Source of the DNA: an uncultured bacterium | GTDB taxonomy: Bacteria; Omnitrophota; Omnitrophia; Omnitrophales; Abzuiibacteriaceae | Assembly (NCBI GenBank): GCA_964387845.1 | Contig: CAYLXA010000008.1 | Location: 44,270-108,269 of the forward strand | DNA: 64,000 nt | Direction of reading: 5' to 3' | Part shown: piece by piece, positions 5,371-42,486 of the stretch | Position numbering within the stretch: position 1 is the first letter of the stretch | How the letters are laid out: every line of letters starts with the position of its first letter | Program-made: the position numbers and the translations under genes | The notes under the pieces: model-generated | The model's database searches: none | What the model saw: the letters and a program-made list of their open reading frames with translations, nothing else | Told to the model about the DNA's origin: nothing

Positions 5371-5449
5371 GTCATCCTGAACGAAGTGAAGGATCTAAGT
5401 TCGTAGACCCTTCGCTCTGCTCAGGGTGACAGGAGTTGCTCAGGATGAC
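5371..5449. repeat. Hairpin-forming copies of a dispersed ~25-nt repeat (GTCATCCTGARCGWAGYGAAGGATC family)
   Basis: 5371-5395 GTCATCCTGAACGAAGTGAAGGATC. 5409-5430 is its imperfect reverse complement CCTTCGCTCTGCTCAGGGTGAC. 5434-5449 is a third partial inverted copy. The same family recurs at 10240-10264 and 10574-10619. Confidence 0.7.
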
Positions 5450-6183: not shown

Positions 6184-7818
6184 ATGAGCCTTTTCTGGAT
6201 TGCGCTTTTTGTTTGCGCGGTTTTCTTGGCGGCTTATTGGACCTACGGACGGTTCTTAAGCCGCCATTTTTCTTTAAATCCAAGAGCCAAAACGCCTGCC
6301 TGCGAGATTAATGACGGTGTGGATTATGTTCCCGCCGAGAAAAACTTCCTTCTCAGCCAGCATTTTTCCGCGATTTCTGCCGCAGGGCCGATCGCTGGGC
6401 CGATCATTGCCGCCGTTTGGTTTGGCTGGCTGCCGGTGCTTTTATGGATTGTGTTAGGCGCGATTTTCTTCGGTGCTGTGCATGATTTTTCAAGTCTCGT
6501 CAATTCCGTCCGCCACCGCGCATTGTCAATCGTCGAAATTGTGCACGAATATTTAGGCCGGCGCGGTTATTTACTTTTTTCTGCTTTTGTTTGGCTGTCT
6601 TTGATTTACGTTATTACCGCTTTTGCTGATTTAACGAGCAATTCATTTGTCAATCCCGAACTGGGCGGCGGTGTTGCGGCTTCCTCAACTTTATATTTAT
6701 TGATCGGCTTGGCGATGGGAATCGCGCTTTATAAATTTCGGATGCCGCTAGGGCTCGCAACCGCCATTTTTCTTCCGCTCGTCATTTTCGCGATCTGGTT
6801 TGGCCAATATATTCCGATCGTGCTTCCGCAACATACCTGGAACCTAATTTTATTGGTTTATTGTTTTATCGCTTCCGTGATTCCGGTATGGCTTTTGCTC
6901 CAGCCGCGCGGATTTTTGGGCGGATTTTTTCTCTATGTGACGCTTGCGGCCGGCCTCATCGGTCTTTTCTTGGGCGGGGAAACGATCCAATATCCGGCCT
7001 TCATCGGATTTAAAAGCGAAAAGGGTTTACCGCTTTTTCCGATTTTATTCGTGACGGTTGCCTGCGGCGCTTGTTCCGGATTTCACGGGATTGTGAGTTC
7101 AGGGACAACATCCAAGCAAATTGCGAAGGAGCCGGACTGCCGGATGATCGGTTATGGCGGCATGCTTTTGGAAGGTGTTGTGGCTTTGATTTCGCTTGCG
7201 ACTGTGATGATTCTTGCGAAAGGTGATGCGCTCGTATCCGGTTCACCCGATCAAATTTACGCCGAAGGCCTCAGCCGTTTTGTAAGCAATTTCGGAATTC
7301 CGCGCGAATTTGCGCGTTCCTTCGCGCTTTTGGCTTTCACGACTTTCATTTATGACACACTCGATGTCGCAACGCGGCTTGCGCGTTATATTTTTCAAGA
7401 GGTAACCGGCTGGAAAAGCAATTGGGGAAAGTACGCCGCAACGTTTATCAGTCTTCTGATCCCGTTTTTTTGTGTCAGCATGAAATCGGTGGATGCTGCT
7501 GGCCATGCCGTTTCGGCGTGGCGGATTTTCTGGACGGTTTTCGGCACTTCCAATCAGCTTTTGGCGGCACTCACGCTCATGATGCTGACCGTTTGGCTTG
7601 TGAAAATTAATAAACCGTGGTGGATGAGCGGAATTCCGATGATTTTTATGTTTACGATGACCGTTTGGTCTTTATTTCTGATGGCTCAGCCGATGCTTTC
7701 CGGCTGGTTTTCTGGGAATTTTAGGCTGGATTTGGTGGGTTCCGTATCGATCGTTCTTTTTGTCCTTACCGCGTTATTGATTGGGGAAGTGTTGAAATTG
7801 AAGAAAATATCGCATTAG
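6184..7818 (+). CDS. cstA: Carbon starvation protein A (CstA family transporter)
   Basis: N-terminal block GRFLSRHFSLNPRAKTPACEINDGVDYVPAEKNFLLSQHFSAISAAGPIAGPIIAAVWFGWLP is the CstA signature. Large multi-TM protein. Confidence 0.9.
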   Translation: MSLFWIALFVCAVFLAAYWTYGRFLSRHFSLNPRAKTPACEINDGVDYVPAEKNFLLSQHFSAISAAGPIAGPIIAAVWFGWLPVLLWIVLGAIFFGAVHDFSSLVNSVRHRALSIVEIVHEYLGRRGYLLFSAFVWLSLIYVITAFADLTSNSFVNPELGGGVAASSTLYLLIGLAMGIALYKFRMPLGLATAIFLPLVIFAIWFGQYIPIVLPQHTWNLILLVYCFIASVIPVWLLLQPRGFLGGFFLYVTLAAGLIGLFLGGETIQYPAFIGFKSEKGLPLFPILFVTVACGACSGFHGIVSSGTTSKQIAKEPDCRMIGYGGMLLEGVVALISLATVMILAKGDALVSGSPDQIYAEGLSRFVSNFGIPREFARSFALLAFTTFIYDTLDVATRLARYIFQEVTGWKSNWGKYAATFISLLIPFFCVSMKSVDAAGHAVSAWRIFWTVFGTSNQLLAALTLMMLTVWLVKINKPWWMSGIPMIFMFTMTVWSLFLMAQPMLSGWFSGNFRLDLVGSVSIVLFVLTALLIGEVLKLKKISH

Positions 7819-9376: not shown

Positions 9377-10249
9377 ATGACTGCCAAACTTTTAGAAGGA
9401 AAAATCATAGCCGAAAAGCTGCAGAAGAAAATTGCAGCAGAGGTGCGCGATCTGACGTCCAAAACAAAGCAAACGCCCAAAATGGTGGCAATCCGGATTA
9501 ATGAAGACCAAGCCTCAGAGCTTTATTTGAAATCACAGCGGAAAGCCGCGGAGCTTGCCGGCATGAAGCATGAAACGATTACGATTTTGGGTGCGACCGA
9601 AAGACAATTAATTCAGGCCATCGAAAAAGCCAATAAAGACGTATCCATTCATGGCATCATGATTCAAATGCCGCTTCCTCAGGATTTTCATCTCGAAAAT
9701 ATTTTGGATTCCATCGATCACAAGAAAGACATCGAAGGCGTCACGAGTTTTAATTTAGGGCAATTGGTTCTCAAGAAAGACAAATTGGTTCCGTGCACGG
9801 CGCTTTCCTGCATCACTTTGATTGAAGAGACAGGCGAGAAGCTGCGCGGCAAAGAAGCTGTGATCGTGGGCTCCAGCAAAGTCGTTGGGCGCCCGGTTTC
9901 GCTTTTACTTTTAGACCGGATGGCAACCGCGACGGTTTGTCATATTGCGACTTCAGAAGCCGGGAAGCTTGAATCGCATGTGAAGCGTGCGGATATTTTG
10001 GTGGTGGCGGTCGGAAAAGAAAATGTAATTCCCGGGAAATGGGTCAAAGAAGGCGCGATTGTGATTGATGTCGGGATTAACCGTGTGAACGGAAAAACCG
10101 TGGGCGATGTGGAATTTGAAGAAGCAAAATCCAGAGCCAAATTCATTACGCCGGTCCCGGGCGGCGTGGGCCCAATGACGGTGACGATTTTAATGCACAA
10201 TTTGGTAACGGCGTACAGGTGGCAGACAGAGAATGCGTCGTCATTCTGA
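9377..10249 (+). CDS. folD: Bifunctional methylenetetrahydrofolate dehydrogenase/methenyl-THF cyclohydrolase FolD
   Basis: MTAKLLEGK..., the NAD(P)-binding GSSKVVGRPVSLLL block and a PGGVGPMTV C-terminus are conserved in FolD. Start taken at ATG 9377 (GGAG 9355). Confidence 0.9.
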   Translation: MTAKLLEGKIIAEKLQKKIAAEVRDLTSKTKQTPKMVAIRINEDQASELYLKSQRKAAELAGMKHETITILGATERQLIQAIEKANKDVSIHGIMIQMPLPQDFHLENILDSIDHKKDIEGVTSFNLGQLVLKKDKLVPCTALSCITLIEETGEKLRGKEAVIVGSSKVVGRPVSLLLLDRMATATVCHIATSEAGKLESHVKRADILVVAVGKENVIPGKWVKEGAIVIDVGINRVNGKTVGDVEFEEAKSRAKFITPVPGGVGPMTVTILMHNLVTAYRWQTENASSF

Positions 10250-10264
10250 GCGTAGCGAAGAATC
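10240..10264. repeat. Copy of the dispersed 25-nt repeat (GTCATTCTGAGCGTAGCGAAGAATC), overlapping the folD stop
   Basis: Direct-orientation copy. Its inverted partner lies at 10574-10598, and together they bracket the GIY-YIG gene. Confidence 0.65.
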
Positions 10265-10273
10265 TCTGTTTCG

Positions 10274-10564
10274 ATGAAGAAGGGTTACGTTTATTTGCTT
10301 GCGAACAAAGTTAACACTGTAATTTATATCGGAGTTACAAGCAATCTTGCAAAAAGAATTTGGGAACATAAAAAGAAGCTGGTAGAAGGATTTACAAAGA
10401 AATATAACGTAGACAAACTAGTTTATTATGAAATTTTCGAGTTAGTTGTTGATGCAATAAAAAGAGAAAAGCAAATTAAAGGTTGGGTCAGAAAAAAGAA
10501 AGTGGACTTAGTCGAATCACTTAACCCTAATTGGAACGATCTATACAAGAACTTAAACGAATAA
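10274..10564 (+). CDS. GIY-YIG nuclease family protein (URI-domain, COG2827-like)
   Basis: GYVYLLANKVNTVIYIGVTSNLAKRIWEHK...KKY..L.Y.E.F........E..IKGW is the GIY-YIG motif. 96 aa. Confidence 0.85.
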   Translation: MKKGYVYLLANKVNTVIYIGVTSNLAKRIWEHKKKLVEGFTKKYNVDKLVYYEIFELVVDAIKREKQIKGWVRKKKVDLVESLNPNWNDLYKNLNE

Positions 10565-10573
10565 GATGTACGA

Positions 10574-10619
10574 GATCCTTCGCTTCGCTCAGGATGACGG
10601 GCGAAGGGTTCAGGATGAC
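10574..10619. repeat. Inverted copy of the 25-nt dispersed repeat plus a partial second copy
   Basis: 10574-10598 GATCCTTCGCTTCGCTCAGGATGAC is the reverse complement of the consensus. 10610-10619 TCAGGATGAC is a partial repeat. It overlaps the panB ribosome-binding region. Confidence 0.65.
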
Positions 10620-10620
10620 G

Positions 10621-11415
10621 ATGAAAACCTCAATCCAACACATCCTTAATAAGAAAAAAGCCAAACAGAAAATCACGGCGCTTAGCACCTACGATTTTGC
10701 ATTTGCGAAGCTCGTCGATCAATCAGGTGCGGATATTGTTTTGGTCGGCGATTCCGTCGGCATGGTCCAGCTCGGTTACGAATCCACGTTGCTTGTGACT
10801 TTGGATGAGATGATTCATCACACGAAGGCGGTTTCGCGCGCCGTAAAGCGTGCGCTTGTTGTGGCGGATATGCCGTATAAAACTTACGAAACAGCCGTTT
10901 CGGCGATTAAATCTGCACGGCGGTTTATTGAAGATGCCAAAGCTGATGCGGTGAAGTTAGAAGGCGGCGAGAAAGTTGTGAAGCAGGCCAAGGCACTCAC
11001 ACGGCTGGGTATTACAGTCATGGGCCATCTCGGAATGTTGCCGCAGTCGATTGAGAAGACAGGCGGCTATAAGGTTCAGGGTAAGGACAAAAAGCAAGCC
11101 GATCAAATTTTAAAAGATGCAAAAGCACTCGAAGAAGCCGGAGCATTTTCTATCGTTTTGGAATGCATTCCGTATGAGCTTGCGAAGAAAATCACGGAAT
11201 CCATAAAAATTCCGACCATCGGAATCGGCGCCGGGCCTTATTGTGACGGACAAATTTTAGTGCTGCATGATTTACTTGGGTTTAAATCGAGTGTCAGCCC
11301 GCGCTTTGTGAGGCGCTACATGGATTTTGATGCGCTGGCCAGTAAAGCTCTGGAGCAATTCCGCCATGATGTCGAAACCGCCAAATTTCCGTCTCTAAAA
11401 GAGAGTTTTGAGTAA
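10621..11415 (+). CDS. panB: 3-methyl-2-oxobutanoate hydroxymethyltransferase (ketopantoate hydroxymethyltransferase)
   Basis: LSTYDFAFAKLVDQSGADIVLVGDSVGMV...VVADMPY...VKLEGG...MGHLGMLPQS..GGYKVQGK are PanB conserved blocks. Start at ATG 10621 (alternative 10615). Confidence 0.9.
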   Translation: MKTSIQHILNKKKAKQKITALSTYDFAFAKLVDQSGADIVLVGDSVGMVQLGYESTLLVTLDEMIHHTKAVSRAVKRALVVADMPYKTYETAVSAIKSARRFIEDAKADAVKLEGGEKVVKQAKALTRLGITVMGHLGMLPQSIEKTGGYKVQGKDKKQADQILKDAKALEEAGAFSIVLECIPYELAKKITESIKIPTIGIGAGPYCDGQILVLHDLLGFKSSVSPRFVRRYMDFDALASKALEQFRHDVETAKFPSLKESFE

Positions 11416-15977: not shown

Positions 15978-16948
15978 TGGCATATCCCAAAACGCGGCTT
16001 AGAAGGCTCCGGCGCACGGAAAATCTGAGGCGCCTTGTCAAGGAAACACATCTTTCTCCGGATCAGTTGATCATGCCGTATTTTGTTTCGGAACTGATCC
16101 GAGGCAAAGAGCCGATTCAATCAATGCCGGGACAATTCCGGTATTCAATATCCGCGCTTTTATCAGAGCTCGATGGTTTAAGCCGCACAGGGGTTCGAAA
16201 TATCATCCTGTTCGGAATTCCGAAGAACAAAGATGAAAAAGCGCGCAGTGCTTATTCATCAAAGGGAATTATTCAACAAACCACGCGCCAAATCAAAAAG
16301 CGTTTTCCGGGGCTGAATGTGATCACGGATGTTTGCCTGTGCGAATACATGAGCCACGGCCATTGCGGCATCATTCAAAAAAACCATGTTCAAAATGATG
16401 CAACGCTTACGCTTCTTGCCAAAACTGCGCTTTCGCATGCCGAGGCCGGCGCCGACATTGTGGCGCCGAGCGACATGATGGACGGCCGGATTGCCGCGAT
16501 CCGCAAAAATTTAGACCGAAGCGGTTTTGAGGAATTGCCGATAATGAGTTATGCCGCGAAATTTGCCTCAGCTTATTATGGGCCGTTCCGTGAGGCCGCG
16601 CATTCTGCTCCGTCATTTGGCGACCGGAAAAGTTATCAGATGAATCCGGCCAACCGGAAAGAGGCCTTGCGCGAAATCGAAACGGATATTGAAGAAGGCG
16701 CCGATATTGTCATGATCAAGCCGGCGCTGCCGTATTTGGACGTGATTCGGGATGCGAACGCGAAGTTTCAAATTCCGTTTGCGGCCTATCAAGTGAGCGG
16801 TGAGTATTCGATGATCAAAGCGGGTGCCAAAGCCGGGTTTATGGATGAGCGGCAGCTGGTTTTGGAAACATTGCTTTCAATTAAACGGGCGGGAGCCAAT
16901 ATCATTCTGACGTATTTTGCAAAAGACGCTGCGAAATGGCTGAAATGA
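15977..16948 (+). CDS. hemB: Porphobilinogen synthase (delta-aminolevulinic acid dehydratase)
   Basis: RLRRLRRTENLRRLVKETHLSPDQLIMPYFV, cysteine cluster CLCEYMSHGHCG (Zn-type), DIVMIKPALPYLD, YQVSGEY active-site lysine region. Confidence 0.9.
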   Translation: MAYPKTRLRRLRRTENLRRLVKETHLSPDQLIMPYFVSELIRGKEPIQSMPGQFRYSISALLSELDGLSRTGVRNIILFGIPKNKDEKARSAYSSKGIIQQTTRQIKKRFPGLNVITDVCLCEYMSHGHCGIIQKNHVQNDATLTLLAKTALSHAEAGADIVAPSDMMDGRIAAIRKNLDRSGFEELPIMSYAAKFASAYYGPFREAAHSAPSFGDRKSYQMNPANRKEALREIETDIEEGADIVMIKPALPYLDVIRDANAKFQIPFAAYQVSGEYSMIKAGAKAGFMDERQLVLETLLSIKRAGANIILTYFAKDAAKWLK

Positions 16949-17964
16949 ATCAATCAGTTTCAAAACACTCCTCACCCCAACCCTCTCCCATGGGGAGAGG
17001 GCAGGGTGAGGGGTCGAGAAGATTTCATTTTTCAATTCTTGTTTTTTTCGGTACGTTCATCCTTTGCTTCGCGCTCTGGATGACTTATCTACAGCAAGTC
17101 GGCTCCTCCGAAAATCATTTCGGAAGTTACCTGATTCTGATCATGGGCCTTTTATTTTCGGCAGCCTGCGGACTTTTTGTTTGGTCGCTTGAGTCCCGGG
17201 AACAGTTTCTCAAGAATGAAGTTGAGAAGCGGACGGTTCAGCTTCAAAGCATTAATGAGGAACTCGCCGAAAAGAATAAAGAAATCGAAAGCTTTGCTTA
17301 CGCCATCTCGCACGATTTAAAAGCACCGCTGGTTTCCATTCAAGGTTTTACGTCATTATTAAAATCCGAACTCGGAAAAACTGCCGAAGGGCCTGTCGGT
17401 GCTCAACTAGACCGTATTTCAGCAAACGTAAAACAGATGAGTGCGCTTATTCAGGATATCTTGGAATTTTCAAGAGTCGGCCGCATGGAAGAAGAGCAGG
17501 AAAGTGTCGATATGAATGAGCTTTTCAAGGAAATCACGGCTGCGCTGAGGCCTCAAATTGAAAGCAAAAAAATCATACTTGAAATTAAACCGCCTTTTTC
17601 AACGCTGTGGGGATCCCGGAAGCGCCTTCAACAGGTATTTATGAATTTGATCGGAAATTCCGTTAAATATATAGGTACTACGCCCAGCCCCAAGGTTAAA
17701 GTATATGGCCGGGAATCCGGAAACGGGCTTTTTGAGATTTGCGTTGAAGACAACGGCATCGGGATCCCGAAAGAAGCTCAGGAAAAGGTATTTAAAATTT
17801 TTCAGCGTTTTCATCCTAAATTGGGCGTCGAAGGGACCGGAATCGGTTTGAGCACCGTCAAGAAAATCGTAGAGACGAGCGGCGGGCGGATTTCGTTTAC
17901 GTCGGAACCCGGCAAAGGAACGTCTTTTTTTATCGCCTGGCCGAAAACGGATTTAAAAAAATGA
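16945..17964 (+). CDS. Sensor histidine kinase (2 TM, HisKA + HATPase_c) with an in-frame palindromic-element insertion near the N-terminus
   Basis: H-box FAYAISHDLKAPL, N-box LIGNSVKY, G-boxes DNGIGIP / GTGIGLSTV. Start placed at the ATG overlapping the hemB stop (ATGA). The ORF opens at 16936. Confidence 0.8.
   Translation: MNQSVSKHSSPQPSPMGRGQGEGSRRFHFSILVFFGTFILCFALWMTYLQQVGSSENHFGSYLILIMGLLFSAACGLFVWSLESREQFLKNEVEKRTVQLQSINEELAEKNKEIESFAYAISHDLKAPLVSIQGFTSLLKSELGKTAEGPVGAQLDRISANVKQMSALIQDILEFSRVGRMEEEQESVDMNELFKEITAALRPQIESKKIILEIKPPFSTLWGSRKRLQQVFMNLIGNSVKYIGTTPSPKVKVYGRESGNGLFEICVEDNGIGIPKEAQEKVFKIFQRFHPKLGVEGTGIGLSTVKKIVETSGGRISFTSEPGKGTSFFIAWPKTDLKK
16970..17011. repeat. REP-like nested palindrome CCTCACCC-CAA-CCCTCTCCC-ATGG-GGAGAGGG-CAG-GGTGAGG inside a coding region
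   Basis: Perfect nested inverted repeat. It is translated in-frame as SPQPSPMGRGQGEG in the kinase N-terminus. A related double unit is at 41725-41808. Confidence 0.7.
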
Positions 17965-40491: not shown

Positions 40492-42486
40492 TTATTCGTA
40501 ACGAAGTGCTTCGATAGGATCGAGTTTGGCAGCTTTTTGTGCGGGCCAAATGCCGAAAATGATGCCGACGGCGGAGGAGAATCCGACGGAGAGCAGAATT
40601 GAATTGAGGGAAACACGGACGGCCCATCCAAAAGCATGCGCTAAACCGTAAGCGACGGCAGAACCGATCAAAATGCCGGCAGCGCCTCCGATCAAGCTGA
40701 CCACCATCGATTCAACCAAAAATTGCAAATAAATGTCCTTCCTCTTTGCGCCGATGGCCTTCCGGAGGCCGATCTCTTTTGTTCTTTCCGTAACGGATAC
40801 GAGCATGATGTTCATGATACCGATTCCGCCGACAAGAAGCGCAATTCCGGCGATAGAGCCCAGAAAAATCGTCATGGTTTGAGTGACTTTTGCGATGGAT
40901 TCCTGAATCTCCGTCATGTCGCGGATTGTGAAGCTGTCTTTACGGGTTTCGGGGAGCCGGTGGCTTCTGATGAGCATGGGAATAATCGCATCCTTTACGT
41001 CCTGAATTTTTTCTTTTGCTTCAACTTCAACTTCGATGGTGCGCAAATAATCGGTGCCGATGAGCCGTTTCATGGCGGTCATGATCGGAATGATGACCAC
41101 ATCGTCTTGATCGCGCCACTGGTTTCCGCCTTTTTCGGGAAGGACGCCGATGACGCGGAAGGCGATCCGGTTGATACGGATAATTTTGTTAATCGGATCT
41201 TCTTTATCAAAAAGTTTCTGGCGGACTGTTTTGCCGATCACAACTACTTTGGCTCTTGTCATATTTTCCCTGTCCGTAAAGAACCGTCCGAGAACAGGTT
41301 CTGCCGCGCGCATTGAAGCGTATTCGGGAGCAACGCCCTGGACTTCCGAATTCCAATTTTTGTTTTGATACACCAGCTGTACGCCGGCCTGGACCGTGGG
41401 GTTGACGCGTTTAACATTCGGAAGTTCACGAACGGATTTCAGGTCGTCCAACGTGAGCCGCGCCGCAGCGCCTTCTGCCATGGCAACGCCGCGCAAAATC
41501 GCGTTGTTGGGCCTCACGACGATTAAATTAGAGCCCAATCTTTCGAGGTCAGCCGTCATGGAAGCTTTGGTGCCTTCACCGAGCGCGAGCATCGCAATCA
41601 CGGATCCGACACCGATTAAAATTCCGAGCATTGAAAGCACCGAACGGACTTTATTGGCAAGAATGGCGGTGATGGCTTGTTGAACAAAGATGCTGATTTC
41701 TTTGAGGATTGAAGAAGAAGGCTTCCCCTCACCCTTACCCTCTCCCCTTAGGGGAGAGGGAAAAGAATTCGATCCCCCTCTCCCTCCGGGAGAGGGTGGG
41801 GTGAGGGAGGTTGAAGAGCCTGAGTCAGAAACGATCTGCCCGTCTTTCATTCGGATTTGGCGCTTTGCATATTCCGCGACTTCTTCTTCATGCGTCACCA
41901 GAATAATCGTGAGCCCCTTTTCATTCAGATTTTTAAGCAGTTTCATAATTTCAGTTTGCGTGTGTGAATCCAAATTTCCTGTCGGTTCATCCGCCATGAT
42001 GATTTTAGGATCGTTGATGAGTGCGCGAGCGATGGCAACGCGCTGCTGTTCGCCGCCTGAGAGTTGGTTGGGTTTGTGCTGTGCGCGTTTCTCGAGATTG
42101 ACTTCGCGTAAGCGTGTCAGAATTTTCTCTTCATTTTGGGAATCTGCATTCGGGCTATAAATCAGCGGCAGCGCCACATTTTTGGATGCGGTCGTGCGGG
42201 AAAGCAGGTTGAACATTTGAAAAATAAAGCCGATTTTTTGATTTCTCAAAACCGCAAGCGCATCATCCGAAAGCTCCGAAATTTGCTCGCCGTCCAAAAT
42301 AAATTCGCCGGAGTCCGGAACATCCAAAAGGCCCAGGACGTGCATCAAAGTTGATTTTCCGGAGCCCGACGGGCCCATGATGGCAATAAATTCGCCGGGT
42401 TGAATGTCGAGTGAAACACCGCGGAGTGCGTGGACTGAGGTTTCGCCGGAAGAGTAGGTTTTTTGAATATTTTTGAGCTTGATCAT
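40492..42486 (-). CDS. macB: MacB-type ABC transporter (fused ATPase + FtsX-like permease) with an in-frame palindromic-element insertion in the linker
   Basis: Walker A GPSGSGKST, Q-loop, signature LSGGEQQRVAIARAL, Walker B IIMADEPTGNLD. C-terminal 4-TM FtsX domain. The linker PSPGGRGGSNSFPSPLRGEGKGEG is encoded by the repeat at 41725-41808. Confidence 0.9.
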   Translation of the reverse strand: MIKLKNIQKTYSSGETSVHALRGVSLDIQPGEFIAIMGPSGSGKSTLMHVLGLLDVPDSGEFILDGEQISELSDDALAVLRNQKIGFIFQMFNLLSRTTASKNVALPLIYSPNADSQNEEKILTRLREVNLEKRAQHKPNQLSGGEQQRVAIARALINDPKIIMADEPTGNLDSHTQTEIMKLLKNLNEKGLTIILVTHEEEVAEYAKRQIRMKDGQIVSDSGSSTSLTPPSPGGRGGSNSFPSPLRGEGKGEGKPSSSILKEISIFVQQAITAILANKVRSVLSMLGILIGVGSVIAMLALGEGTKASMTADLERLGSNLIVVRPNNAILRGVAMAEGAAARLTLDDLKSVRELPNVKRVNPTVQAGVQLVYQNKNWNSEVQGVAPEYASMRAAEPVLGRFFTDRENMTRAKVVVIGKTVRQKLFDKEDPINKIIRINRIAFRVIGVLPEKGGNQWRDQDDVVIIPIMTAMKRLIGTDYLRTIEVEVEAKEKIQDVKDAIIPMLIRSHRLPETRKDSFTIRDMTEIQESIAKVTQTMTIFLGSIAGIALLVGGIGIMNIMLVSVTERTKEIGLRKAIGAKRKDIYLQFLVESMVVSLIGGAAGILIGSAVAYGLAHAFGWAVRVSLNSILLSVGFSSAVGIIFGIWPAQKAAKLDPIEALRYE
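41725..41808. repeat. Double-unit REP-like palindromic element inside macB
   Basis: CCCCTCACCC..CCCTCTCCCC-TTAG-GGGAGAGGG...CCCCCTCTCCC-TCCG-GGAGAGGG-TGGGGTGAGGG. Two inner palindromes sit within outer CCTCACCC/GGGTGAGG arms. It is related to the unit at 16970-17011. Confidence 0.7.

What the first reader, a model, noticed from the sequence alone, without database searches (positions are those of the whole stretch)
10240..10619. GIY-YIG nuclease gene bracketed by inverted copies of a dispersed 25-nt repeat; the same repeat forms a hairpin at 5371-5449
GTCATTCTGAGCGTAGCGAAGAATC (10240-10264, overlapping the folD stop) and its reverse complement GATCCTTCGCTTCGCTCAGGATGAC (10574-10598, plus a partial copy to 10619 overlapping the panB RBS) flank the 96-aa GIY-YIG ORF precisely. 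A third locus (5371-5449, between terC and the BI-1 gene) has two inverted copies forming a ~22-bp stem plus a partial third copy. This looks like a small cassette, nuclease plus terminal inverted repeats, inserted between folD and panB. The repeat may be the nuclease's recognition or mobility element, and the orphan hairpin a solo remnant.
Basis: seen in the sequence. Interest (0 to 1): 0.55.

Follow-up and report, generated by a model that had tools for sequence, protein, structure and literature searches.

The report
Ssn nuclease cassette with hairpin repeats
The small GIY-YIG gene and its flanking inverted 25-nt repeats are a new example of the Ssn single-strand DNA nuclease and its hairpin recognition repeats (described in 2025), here caught as a roughly 385-nt insertion between folD and panB that close relatives lack.

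Summary
Four full copies of a 25-nt unit (consensus GTCATCCTGAGCGAAGCGAAGGATC) lie at 5371-5395(+), 5406-5430(-), 10240-10264(+) and 10574-10598(-). Two further 12-nt half copies are present. Shuffled sequence gives none. Two inverted copies bracket a 96-aa single-domain GIY-YIG ORF (10274-10564).

The system is already published: Ssn nucleases and their Ssn-related motifs (SRM/NTS), Chenal et al. 2025, PMC11893778. The window protein is 47% identical, without gaps, to the Neisseria gonorrhoeae SsnA orthologue, and the three residues mutated in that study are conserved. The repeats follow the SRM grammar: Y-GTC, a palindrome starting with AT, then C. The hairpin is supported by compensatory changes. 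The published degenerate search string does not match this variant.

New here:
- Seven contigs from relatives have folD and panB overlapping by 4 nt, with no cassette.
- The cassette occurs in two different clades. It is about 90% identical between them, against 76-80% for the flanking genes (dS 0.42 against 1.3 and 2.4).
- Short flanking tracts are shared along with it, which indicates lateral transfer by homologous recombination.
- The insertion boundaries are compatible with the published Ssn cut position.

Verdict: a new member of a known kind.

The parts
10240..10264 (+). Left SRM unit GTCATTCTGAGCGTAGCGAAGAATC (preceded by C10239). A hairpin of ATTCT/AGAAT with a G-A internal loop and a GC-GTA-GC tip. 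It contains the folD stop codon TGA at 10247-10249.
   Evidence: Model R1: 43.3 bits, E 1.1e-8. Hairpin covariation.
10274..10564 (+). ssn gene: a 96-aa single-domain GIY-YIG nuclease, homologous to Neisseria SsnA. Catalytic Y7, Y18 and E65 are conserved. G+C is 33% against 46-51% in the flanks.
   Evidence: Pfam PF01541, E 8e-18. BLASTP to the N. gonorrhoeae SsnA orthologue: 47% identity, E 1e-30. dN/dS 0.13 against L002. G+C dip.
10574..10598 (-). Right SRM unit, inverted relative to the left one and an exact match to the consensus GTCATCCTGAGCGAAGCGAAGGATC.
   Evidence: Model R1: 44.7 bits, E 4.9e-9.
10608..10619 (-). Extra 5' half unit GTCATCCTGAAC outside the right unit. It is part of a 21-nt segment absent from L002. 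Its AGGA lies 7 nt before the panB ATG.
10236..10623 (.). Extent of the insertion relative to empty sites. Because ATG/TG occurs at both junctions, the limits are ambiguous by up to 3 nt (10234-10620 to 10236-10623). The second reading places both limits 4 nt outside a GTCAT.
   Evidence: Alignments A1. Published cut position.
10216..10235 (+). Left co-transferred flank: the last codons of folD, identical in the window and L002 (GGTGGCAGACAGAGAATGCG) but different from the empty-site relatives of both clades.
10621..10660 (+). Right co-transferred flank: the first ~12 codons of panB (MKTSIQHILNKK). These resemble L002 (MKISIQSILNKK), not the empty-site relatives (MKKVTTSDILQK).
5371..5395 (+). 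Solo SRM unit GTCATCCTGAACGAAGTGAAGGATC. The inner pair has changed from G-C to A-T, a compensatory change.
   Evidence: Model R1 E 1.7e-8..
5406..5430 (-). Solo SRM unit GTCACCCTGAGCAGAGCGAAGGGTC, inverted, 10 nt from the previous one, so the two form a doublet. Its basal stem is ACCCT/AGGGT.
   Evidence: Model R1 E 2.5e-7. The doublet folds at -17.5 kcal/mol, z -4.3.
5438..5449 (-). 5' half unit GTCATCCTGAGC outside the doublet. This is the same arrangement as at 10608-10619.

Best explanation
This is an Ssn-SRM module. The 96-aa protein belongs to the Ssn family of site-specific single-stranded-DNA endonucleases, and the 25-nt repeats are its cognate Ssn-related motifs (SRM).

Inferred by homology: when the DNA is single-stranded, each unit folds into a short hairpin. 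The hairpin has a 5-bp basal stem beginning with AT, a purine-rich internal loop and a GC-GNA-GC tip. The protein binds the hairpin together with the C that follows it, reads the GTC that precedes it, and nicks that strand about 3-4 nt upstream. The complementary strand, double-stranded DNA and RNA are not substrates.

Shown here: the module SRM-ssn-SRM is a compact cassette of 365-388 nt that was inserted between the formerly overlapping folD and panB genes. It is absent from the closest relatives. It was passed between two species-level clades together with about 20 and about 40 nt of flanking sequence, meaning by homologous recombination. The gene is under purifying selection.

Inferred: in the cell the nuclease most likely cuts SRM-bearing single-stranded DNA, such as incoming transforming or conjugative DNA or replication intermediates, as shown for Neisseria. 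The cassette and its solo hairpin copies behave as a selfish, IS-like element. The first insertion step is probably linked to Ssn cleavage at its ends.
For: Identity with the Ssn family:
- tblastn to two N. gonorrhoeae chromosomes gives E 1e-20.
- BLASTP to the 94-aa orthologue gives 47% identity over 89 residues without gaps, E 1e-30. Y7, Y18 and E65 align with the published mutant positions Y6, Y17 and E64.
- That orthologue is flanked by canonical NTS repeats.

SRM grammar. In 121 units flanking 81 homologues:
- the base after the palindrome is C in 116;
- the base before GTCAT is C or T in 111;
- neither feature was imposed by the search. They match the published key positions.

Hairpin:
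- 97.2% of cells are paired;
- 5 of 7 pairs show changes on both sides;
- 0 of 500 shuffles reach the observed value.

Association with the gene:
- 51 of 81 homologues are flanked on both sides, against a chance rate of about 3.5% per side.
- Density is 27.8 strict units per 10 kb within 300 nt of ssn, 1.08 elsewhere and 0.13 in shuffles.
- Model R1 finds units flanking ssn in loci that were not used to build it.

Insertion:
- The site is empty in L003-L006, L111-L113 and L115/L116.

Lateral transfer:
- By FolD and PanB the window groups with the empty L003/4/6, and L002 groups with the empty L111/112.
- The cassette is 90-95% identical between the window and L002, against 68-84% for the flanks.
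- dS is 0.42 for ssn, against 1.27 for folD and 2.42 for panB; Fisher p = 1.5e-6.
- G+C dips to 33% over the gene.

Purifying selection: dN/dS is 0.13.
Against: No biochemical test exists for this protein or for this SRM variant. The published degenerate SRM search string does not match the window's units, and it matches flanks of only 10 of the 81 closest homologues. The specificity of this subfamily is therefore extrapolated. The nearest-neighbour energy of a single unit is weak (-1.6 to -3.7 kcal/mol, not better than shuffles), so the hairpin rests on covariation and on the published data. Only 64 kb of the genome is visible, with two SRM loci, so the genome-wide abundance of SRMs is unknown. 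Spread by homologous recombination needs no nuclease, so Ssn-driven mobility is not demonstrated. In one MAG the duplicated unit that contains ssn is bounded by different outer inverted repeats, not by the SRMs.
Confidence: 0.85

Rival explanations
1. An autonomous transposon of a new mechanistic class. Ssn itself would act as the transposase, nicking each strand 4 nt outside the terminal GTCAT of the two inverted SRMs, and the excised or copied segment would integrate elsewhere. Solo doublets would be non-autonomous derivatives, comparable to MITEs or REPINs.
For: The architecture is IS-like, as the authors of PMC11893778 also note. The cassette is an insertion. In L002, one of the permitted junction alignments puts both limits exactly 4 nt outside GTCAT, the published cut position. 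Homologues at 55-72% identity occur in more than 15 phyla and in unrelated gene contexts. Two copies that are 97% identical sit at unrelated loci in one MAG. Solo doublets differ between relatives.
Against: GIY-YIG nucleases hydrolyse DNA without a covalent intermediate, so strand transfer would need other factors (established knowledge of the superfamily). The two ends are cut on opposite strands, unlike IS200/IS605. The only transfer documented here carried flanking host sequence, which points to recombination. The junction is ambiguous by 3 nt. The duplicated unit in L055/L101 ends at other inverted repeats, 30-75 nt beyond the SRMs.
Confidence: 0.3
2. A free-standing GIY-YIG homing endonuclease gene. 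The protein would cut the empty folD-panB junction in double-stranded DNA, and repair from a filled allele would copy the gene in, with co-conversion of the flanks.
For: The same site is occupied in two clades, with short shared flanking tracts. This is the classical signature of homing. There is a weak match to TIGR01453, group I intron endonuclease.
Against: The protein is 96 aa and has no DNA-binding domain. The TIGR01453 score of 24.9 is far below the cut-off of 56 and covers only the first 36 residues. Family members tested did not cut double-stranded DNA. The inverted hairpin repeats and the solo copies are not explained. Close homologues sit in unrelated sites.
Confidence: 0.05
3. The repeats are ordinary RNA-level elements, such as terminators, mRNA stabilisers or attenuators, that happen to lie beside a housekeeping GIY-YIG repair nuclease.
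For: The units are hairpins in intergenic positions. The left unit supplies a stop codon and the right unit a Shine-Dalgarno-like AGGA.
Against: None of the units was called terminator-like, and none is followed by a T-run. Only 2 loci are present among roughly 60 genes. No Rfam family matches. The orientation rule (GTCAT outward on both sides) and the conserved unpaired GTC and C are not expected of terminators. SsnA does not bind RNA.
Confidence: 0.03

Closest known systems
Ssn (SsnA) single-stranded DNA endonucleases with NTS/SRM hairpin repeats (Chenal et al., Nat Commun 2025, PMC11893778)
   Same: Both are single-domain GIY-YIG proteins of about 95 aa, 47% identical to the Neisseria orthologue with the catalytic residues conserved. 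In both, the gene is bracketed by inverted hairpin repeats with GTC before and C after the palindrome. Additional solo copies occur elsewhere.
   Different: The hairpin sequence differs (ATCCT-GAGCGAAGCGA-AGGAT instead of ATTCCCGCG-MAV-CGCGGGAAT) and is missed by the published degenerate search string. The host is an uncultivated lineage whose PanB is nearest to Omnitrophota entries at 61-64% identity. This locus also documents an empty site and lateral transfer, which the paper raised only as a hypothesis.
REP/REPIN elements and their RAYT (TnpA-REP, HUH Y1) transposases; IS200/IS605
   Same: In both, a short hairpin carries a conserved unpaired 5' tag (GTAG there, GTC here) and is recognised as single-stranded DNA. 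The nuclease gene is flanked by inverted copies, and doublets are dispersed in intergenic regions.
   Different: The enzyme fold and chemistry are unrelated: a hydrolytic GIY-YIG nuclease rather than an HUH tyrosine transesterase. No Y1_Tnp domain is present.
GIY-YIG homing endonucleases (I-TevI, I-BmoI)
   Same: They share the GIY-YIG catalytic domain. Spread into the same site, with co-conversion of flanks, resembles homing.
   Different: Homing enzymes are about 250 aa with a C-terminal DNA-binding domain and cut double-stranded DNA. This protein is the catalytic domain alone, and its relatives cut only single-stranded DNA.
Bacterial MITEs such as Correia elements and Rickettsia palindromic elements
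   Same: Both are small palindromic insertions at gene boundaries that can supply stop codons or ribosome-binding sites without disrupting the neighbouring genes.
   Different: Those elements are mobilised by DDE transposases and leave target-site duplications. No transposase is present here and no duplication could be established.

Membership tests
Ssn/SRM system (PMC11893778) | Single-domain GIY-YIG protein of about 94 aa | tested here: met
   The protein is 96 aa. PF01541 covers residues 3-76 and no other domain is found.
Ssn/SRM system (PMC11893778) | Homology to Neisseria SsnA (the paper's criterion: tblastn E < 1e-10) | tested here: met
   tblastn E 1e-20 to N. gonorrhoeae chromosomes. 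BLASTP 47% identity, E 1e-30, no gaps.
Ssn/SRM system (PMC11893778) | Catalytic residues corresponding to Y6, Y17 and E64 of SsnA | tested here: met
   Y7, Y18 and E65 align with them. They are invariant in 20 homologues.
Ssn/SRM system (PMC11893778) | [quoted passage not shown] | not testable with these tools
   No CDD search is available. NCBIfam has no specific model for this family.
Ssn/SRM system (PMC11893778) | Gene flanked on both sides by hairpin repeats | tested here: met
   Units at 10240-10264(+) and 10574-10598(-), E about 1e-8.
Ssn/SRM system (PMC11893778) | Repeat grammar: conserved GTC before the palindrome and C after it, giving the repeat an orientation | tested here: met
   All four window units read (Y)GTC-palindrome-C. 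The same holds in 116 and 111 of 121 flanking units of homologues.
Ssn/SRM system (PMC11893778) | Match to the published degenerate SRM string HGTCWYN(0-2)YYVSBRHN(0-5)WNVSBRGN(0-2)RNCYNB | tested here: not met
   None of the window's units matches. The only window match is a coding-region hit at 9938-9971. This string is a search device built from 29 genomes, not a definition of the family.
Ssn/SRM system (PMC11893778) | Hairpin structure of the repeat | tested here: met
   97.2% of cells are paired, 5 of 7 pairs have changes on both sides, and 0 of 500 shuffles reach the observed value. The predicted DNA fold is the same hairpin.
Ssn/SRM system (PMC11893778) | Binding and cleavage of single-stranded DNA only, a few nt upstream of the repeat | not testable with these tools
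   This needs biochemistry. The insertion limits are compatible with the published cut position.
Ssn/SRM system (PMC11893778) | Many dispersed copies of the repeat in the genome | tested here: inconclusive
   Only 64 kb is visible. One solo doublet is present (5371-5430). Strict units number 4 real ones plus 1 chance-like hit, against 1.0 in shuffles.
REP/RAYT and IS200/IS605 | HUH Y1 transposase (Y1_Tnp) | tested here: not met
   The only Pfam family found is GIY-YIG.
GIY-YIG homing endonucleases | Nuclease domain joined to a DNA-binding domain; family model TIGR01453 | tested here: not met
   The protein is 96 aa. The TIGR01453 score is 24.9 bits against a cut-off of 56.05, over residues 3-38 only.
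Classical IS or MITE | Target-site duplication at the insertion | tested here: inconclusive
   ATG occurs on both sides of the insertion. The flanks were co-transferred from another lineage, so the original target cannot be reconstructed.
Intrinsic terminator | G+C-rich stem followed by a T-run | tested here: not met
   No terminator-like call falls on any unit.

The most novel reading that the evidence does not exclude
SRM-ssn-SRM is an active mobile element of a new mechanistic class. A hydrolytic GIY-YIG single-strand nuclease would define the element's ends by nicking 4 nt outside each terminal GTCAT, and the solo hairpin doublets would be its non-autonomous derivatives. The folD/panB filled and empty pair would then be the first mapped insertion of such an element.
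Probability: 0.3. Interest if true: 0.75.

Novelty: new member of a known kind. Interest (0 to 1): 0.4.

Why it matters
The Ssn family was described only in 2025. Its role outside Neisseria is open, as is the question of whether the repeat-gene-repeat module is mobile.

This locus gives a clean natural experiment:
- an insertion mapped to within 3 nt between two overlapping housekeeping genes;
- empty sites in the nearest relatives;
- evidence that the cassette crossed between two clades with short co-converted flanks;
- evidence that the gene stays under purifying selection.

It also shows that the hairpin class most common around the nearest homologues of this protein is missed by the published search string, so SRM abundance in uncultivated phyla is probably underestimated. 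For biotechnology, this is a further candidate pair of enzyme and recognition sequence with a different specificity.

Tried and rejected
- Rfam at gathering thresholds and tRNA scans of the whole window found nothing.
- Literature searches for the repeat sequences themselves, and for GIY-YIG with REP, REPIN or COG2827, found nothing relevant. The Ssn paper surfaced only from a broad GIY-YIG plus hairpin search. No supplementary files are held for it.
- A first hairpin detector that used an RNA folding-energy threshold was too strict, because G-A pairs are not rewarded. A loose detector allowing G-T pairs had a chance rate equal to the background. It was used only for the flank test. A stricter version was used for densities.
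- No Ssn-family structure was found in the PDB; the best GIY-YIG match was 1zg2, E 0.1.
- No homologue was found in the phage collection.
- No relatives at 90% identity exist for TerC or BI-1, so presence or absence of the 5371-5449 doublet in relatives could not be tested.
- The fifth model hit, 17058-17084 (E 0.0035), was rejected as an SRM insertion. The same stretch is conserved coding sequence in L111.
- The metagenome scan was not used. The 5.8-billion-protein search already showed only one relative above 72% identity.
Full report
**1. The observation**

- The consensus 25-mer GTCATCCTGAGCGAAGCGAAGGATC matches at 5371-5395(+), 10240-10264(+) and 10574-10598(-) with at most 3 mismatches. 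None of 100 dinucleotide shuffles gave a match.
- The 12-nt 5' half also occurs at 5419-5430(-), 5438-5449(-) and 10608-10619(-).
- The ORF 10274-10564 encodes a 96-aa protein that is a GIY-YIG domain and nothing else (PF01541, E 8e-18).
- Its neighbours are FolD (9377-10249) and PanB (10621-11415). The second repeat locus lies between TerC and a BI-1 family gene.
- No Rfam family and no tRNA is found in the window.

**2. Each 25-mer is a hairpin**

Copies collected without any structural requirement (at most 5 mismatches to the consensus; 79 copies, 31 distinct sequences, none in shuffles) show compensatory changes:

- basal stem ATCCT/AGGAT, ATTCT/AGAAT, ATGCT/AGCAT and ACCCT/AGGGT;
- inner pair G-C to A-T.

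On the structure ...(((((..((...))..))))). 97.2% of cells are paired and 5 of 7 pairs have changes on both sides. Twenty-four cells are doubly changed, against 5.5 in shuffles, and 0 of 500 shuffles reach the observed value. Slid registers give 26-47% pairing. DNA folding predicts the same hairpin. Its computed energy is weak (-1.6 to -3.7 kcal/mol), because the tandem G-A pairs and the GNA loop are not rewarded.

The window's two cassette units differ at two positions that compensate within each unit, not between the units. A covariance model built from these copies (R1) finds four full units in the window at E <= 2.5e-7.

**3. The gene-repeat association is general**

The protein has 4348 relatives in the large protein database, at 63-72% identity in Omnitrophota, Deferribacter and Legionella. 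Many sit on very short contigs. A scan of one genome per species returned more than 591 relatives. The 80 best come from more than 15 phyla.

Around 81 such genes:

- 59 have a GTCAT-hairpin unit within 150 nt upstream on the gene's strand, 62 have one downstream on the opposite strand, and 51 have both. Chance is about 3.5% per side.
- The hairpin sequence differs between lineages. GTCATTGCGAG...GAAGCAATC is the most common. GTCATTCCGGC...GCCGGAATC and GTCATGCTGAAC...GTTCAGCATC also occur.
- Two features not required by the search are nearly constant: C after the palindrome (116 of 121) and a pyrimidine before GTCAT (111 of 121).
- Strict units occur at 27.8 per 10 kb within 300 nt of the gene, 1.08 per 10 kb elsewhere in the same loci, and 0.13 in shuffles.
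- The exact 25-mer also occurs in 24 IMG/VR contigs that have no such gene.
- Model R1 finds units flanking ssn in L117-L120, which were not used to build it.

**4. The system is already known**

Chenal et al. (Nat Commun 2025, PMC11893778) described the following:

- SsnA is a 94-aa single-domain GIY-YIG protein of Neisseria meningitidis, in CDD family cd10448.
- It binds the hairpin repeat NTS (CGTCATTCCCGCGMAVGCGGGAATCYRG) only as single-stranded DNA, and only in one orientation.
- It cuts 3 nt upstream of the repeat.
- The GTC before the palindrome is needed for cutting, and the C after it for binding.
- The protein lowers transformation by NTS-bearing DNA.
- Homologues across bacteria are flanked by related motifs (SRM), and homologues from other species cut their own SRM.
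- The authors note that NTS-ssnA-NTS looks like an insertion sequence and compare it with REP/RAYT. They do not show mobility.

**5. Membership**

Two N. gonorrhoeae chromosomes that are filed as plasmids in PLSDB match the window protein (tblastn E 1e-20). The ORF there is 94 aa and is flanked by canonical NTS repeats. It is 47% identical to the window protein over 89 residues without gaps (E 1e-30). Y7, Y18 and E65 align with the mutated residues Y6, Y17 and E64.

The published degenerate SRM string does not match the window's units. It hits flanks of only 10 of the 81 nearest homologues. This string is a search aid built from 29 genomes. The grammar it encodes (Y-GTC, palindrome, C) is met. 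CDD assignment and biochemistry could not be tested.

**6. The cassette is an insertion**

These contigs come from relatives and have no GIY-YIG gene at the site:

- L003, L004/L005 and L006 (PanB 91-92% identical): the folD stop overlaps the panB start (GAGAAATGAAG).
- L111-L113 (83%): same overlap.
- L115/L116 (67%): same overlap.
- L114 (70%): a 29-nt gap instead.

The window, and L002 (Ssn 91% identical), carry the cassette at this junction. It is about 388 nt in the window and about 367 nt in L002. The difference is a 21-nt segment holding the extra half unit, which L002 lacks.

The insertion replaced the folD end (WQVEK* became WQTENASSF*), with the stop codon lying inside the left unit. 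It left panB with an AGGA from the right repeat 7 nt before its ATG.

The limits are ambiguous by 3 nt, because ATG occurs on both sides. One reading (10236-10623) puts both limits 4 nt outside GTCAT, which is the published cut position. In L002 both of those GTCAT belong to full units. This is compatible with Ssn cleavage at the ends, but it does not prove it.

**7. Lateral transfer**

- FolD and PanB place the window with the empty-site L003/4/6: folD 87-92% and panB 83-84% nucleotide identity.
- They place L002 with the empty-site L111/112: 88% and 81%.
- Between the two clades the values are 78-81% and 75-77%.
- The cassette is 90-95% identical between the window and L002.
- Synonymous divergence is 0.42 for ssn, against 1.27 for folD and 2.42 for panB. 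Fisher p is 2e-4, 1e-7 and 1.5e-6 for folD, panB and the two combined.
- The last 20 nt of folD and the first ~40 nt of panB are shared by the two filled genomes and differ from the empty relatives of both clades.
- G+C falls to 33% in the gene, against 46-51% beside it.

The simplest reading is that the cassette entered one or both lineages by homologous recombination from a third lineage, with short co-converted flanks. dN/dS of 0.13 indicates a functional protein. The next closest homologues (70-71%) sit in an unrelated context.

**8. Mechanism and rivals**

The explanation best supported is the published one, applied to this locus. The protein is a hairpin-guided single-strand nuclease with its cognate repeats, carried on a compact selfish cassette.

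Whether Ssn itself drives transposition remains open.

- In favour: the IS-like architecture, the junction geometry, the wide and patchy distribution, two 97% identical copies in one MAG, and solo doublets that differ between relatives.
- Against: hydrolytic chemistry, cuts on opposite strands, recombination-type transfer here, and the fact that the duplicated unit in that MAG ends at other inverted repeats.

A double-strand homing endonuclease is unlikely, given the protein's size, the TIGR01453 score below cut-off and the published lack of duplex cleavage. A terminator or RNA element is excluded by the absence of T-runs, the orientation rule, and the conserved unpaired GTC and C.

**9. Verdict**

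This is a new member of a known kind. It has a variant recognition hairpin and an informative filled/empty site pair. Interest is moderate.

Noticed in passing
window 16970-17013, 41727-41760 and 41776-41805: A second, unrelated palindromic repeat (CCTCACCCNNACCCTCTCCC...GGGGAGAGGG...GGTGAGGGG) occurs three times. The copy at 16970-17013 is an insertion of about 40 nt relative to the syntenic region of L111, at the start of a histidine kinase ORF.
   Followed up: partly
window 17058-17084 (-): An SRM-like sequence (GTCATCCAGAGCGCGAAGCAAAGGATG, model R1 E 0.0035) lies inside the N-terminal membrane segment of the histidine kinase ORF 16936-17964. The stretch is homologous coding sequence in L111, so it is probably a chance resemblance and not an insertion.
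   Followed up: yes
L111 1439-1509 and L002 1-52: A doublet of a different SRM type (GTCATTGCGAGCGAAGCGAAGCAATC, TACGTA, then an inverted unit) sits at the cstA stop codon in clade B relatives. It is absent from the window, where cstA and the glycosyltransferase gene overlap (7766-7818). The L002 contig begins inside this doublet, which suggests an assembly break at a repeat.
   Followed up: partly
L055 9978-10492 and L101 (same MAG, CAVWTD01): Two copies of a 515-nt unit containing SRM-ssn-SRM are 97% identical and sit at unrelated loci. The unit ends in 17-nt outer inverted repeats (CATAAGCGCTAACTTAA / TTAAGTTAGCGCTTATG), 30-75 nt beyond the SRMs. L049 shows the same outer repeat. This may be an ssn cassette nested in another palindromic element.
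   Followed up: partly
window 5438-5449 and 10608-10619; loci L059, L075, L105 and others: Extra 5' half units or full units on the same strand lie just outside the full unit in 11 of 121 cases, and never just inside. Both window loci show this arrangement. The origin is unknown: footprints, nested insertions or split recognition sites are all possible.
   Followed up: partly
L007-L030 (IMG/VR contigs): The exact 25-mer occurs in 24 contigs classed as viral, none with an ssn gene within the stretch held. No homologue of the protein is found in 50,697 phage records. It was not examined whether these contigs are host fragments or phages carrying SRMs.
   Followed up: no
L038 9995-10714: Two identical ssn cassettes lie in tandem, 426 nt apart, each with its own flanking units.
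   Followed up: no
PLSDB records NZ_CP119140.1 and NZ_CP119142.1: Two 2.17-Mb Neisseria gonorrhoeae chromosomes are filed as plasmids in the plasmid collection. This was useful here, because it gave access to the SsnA orthologue.
   Followed up: no
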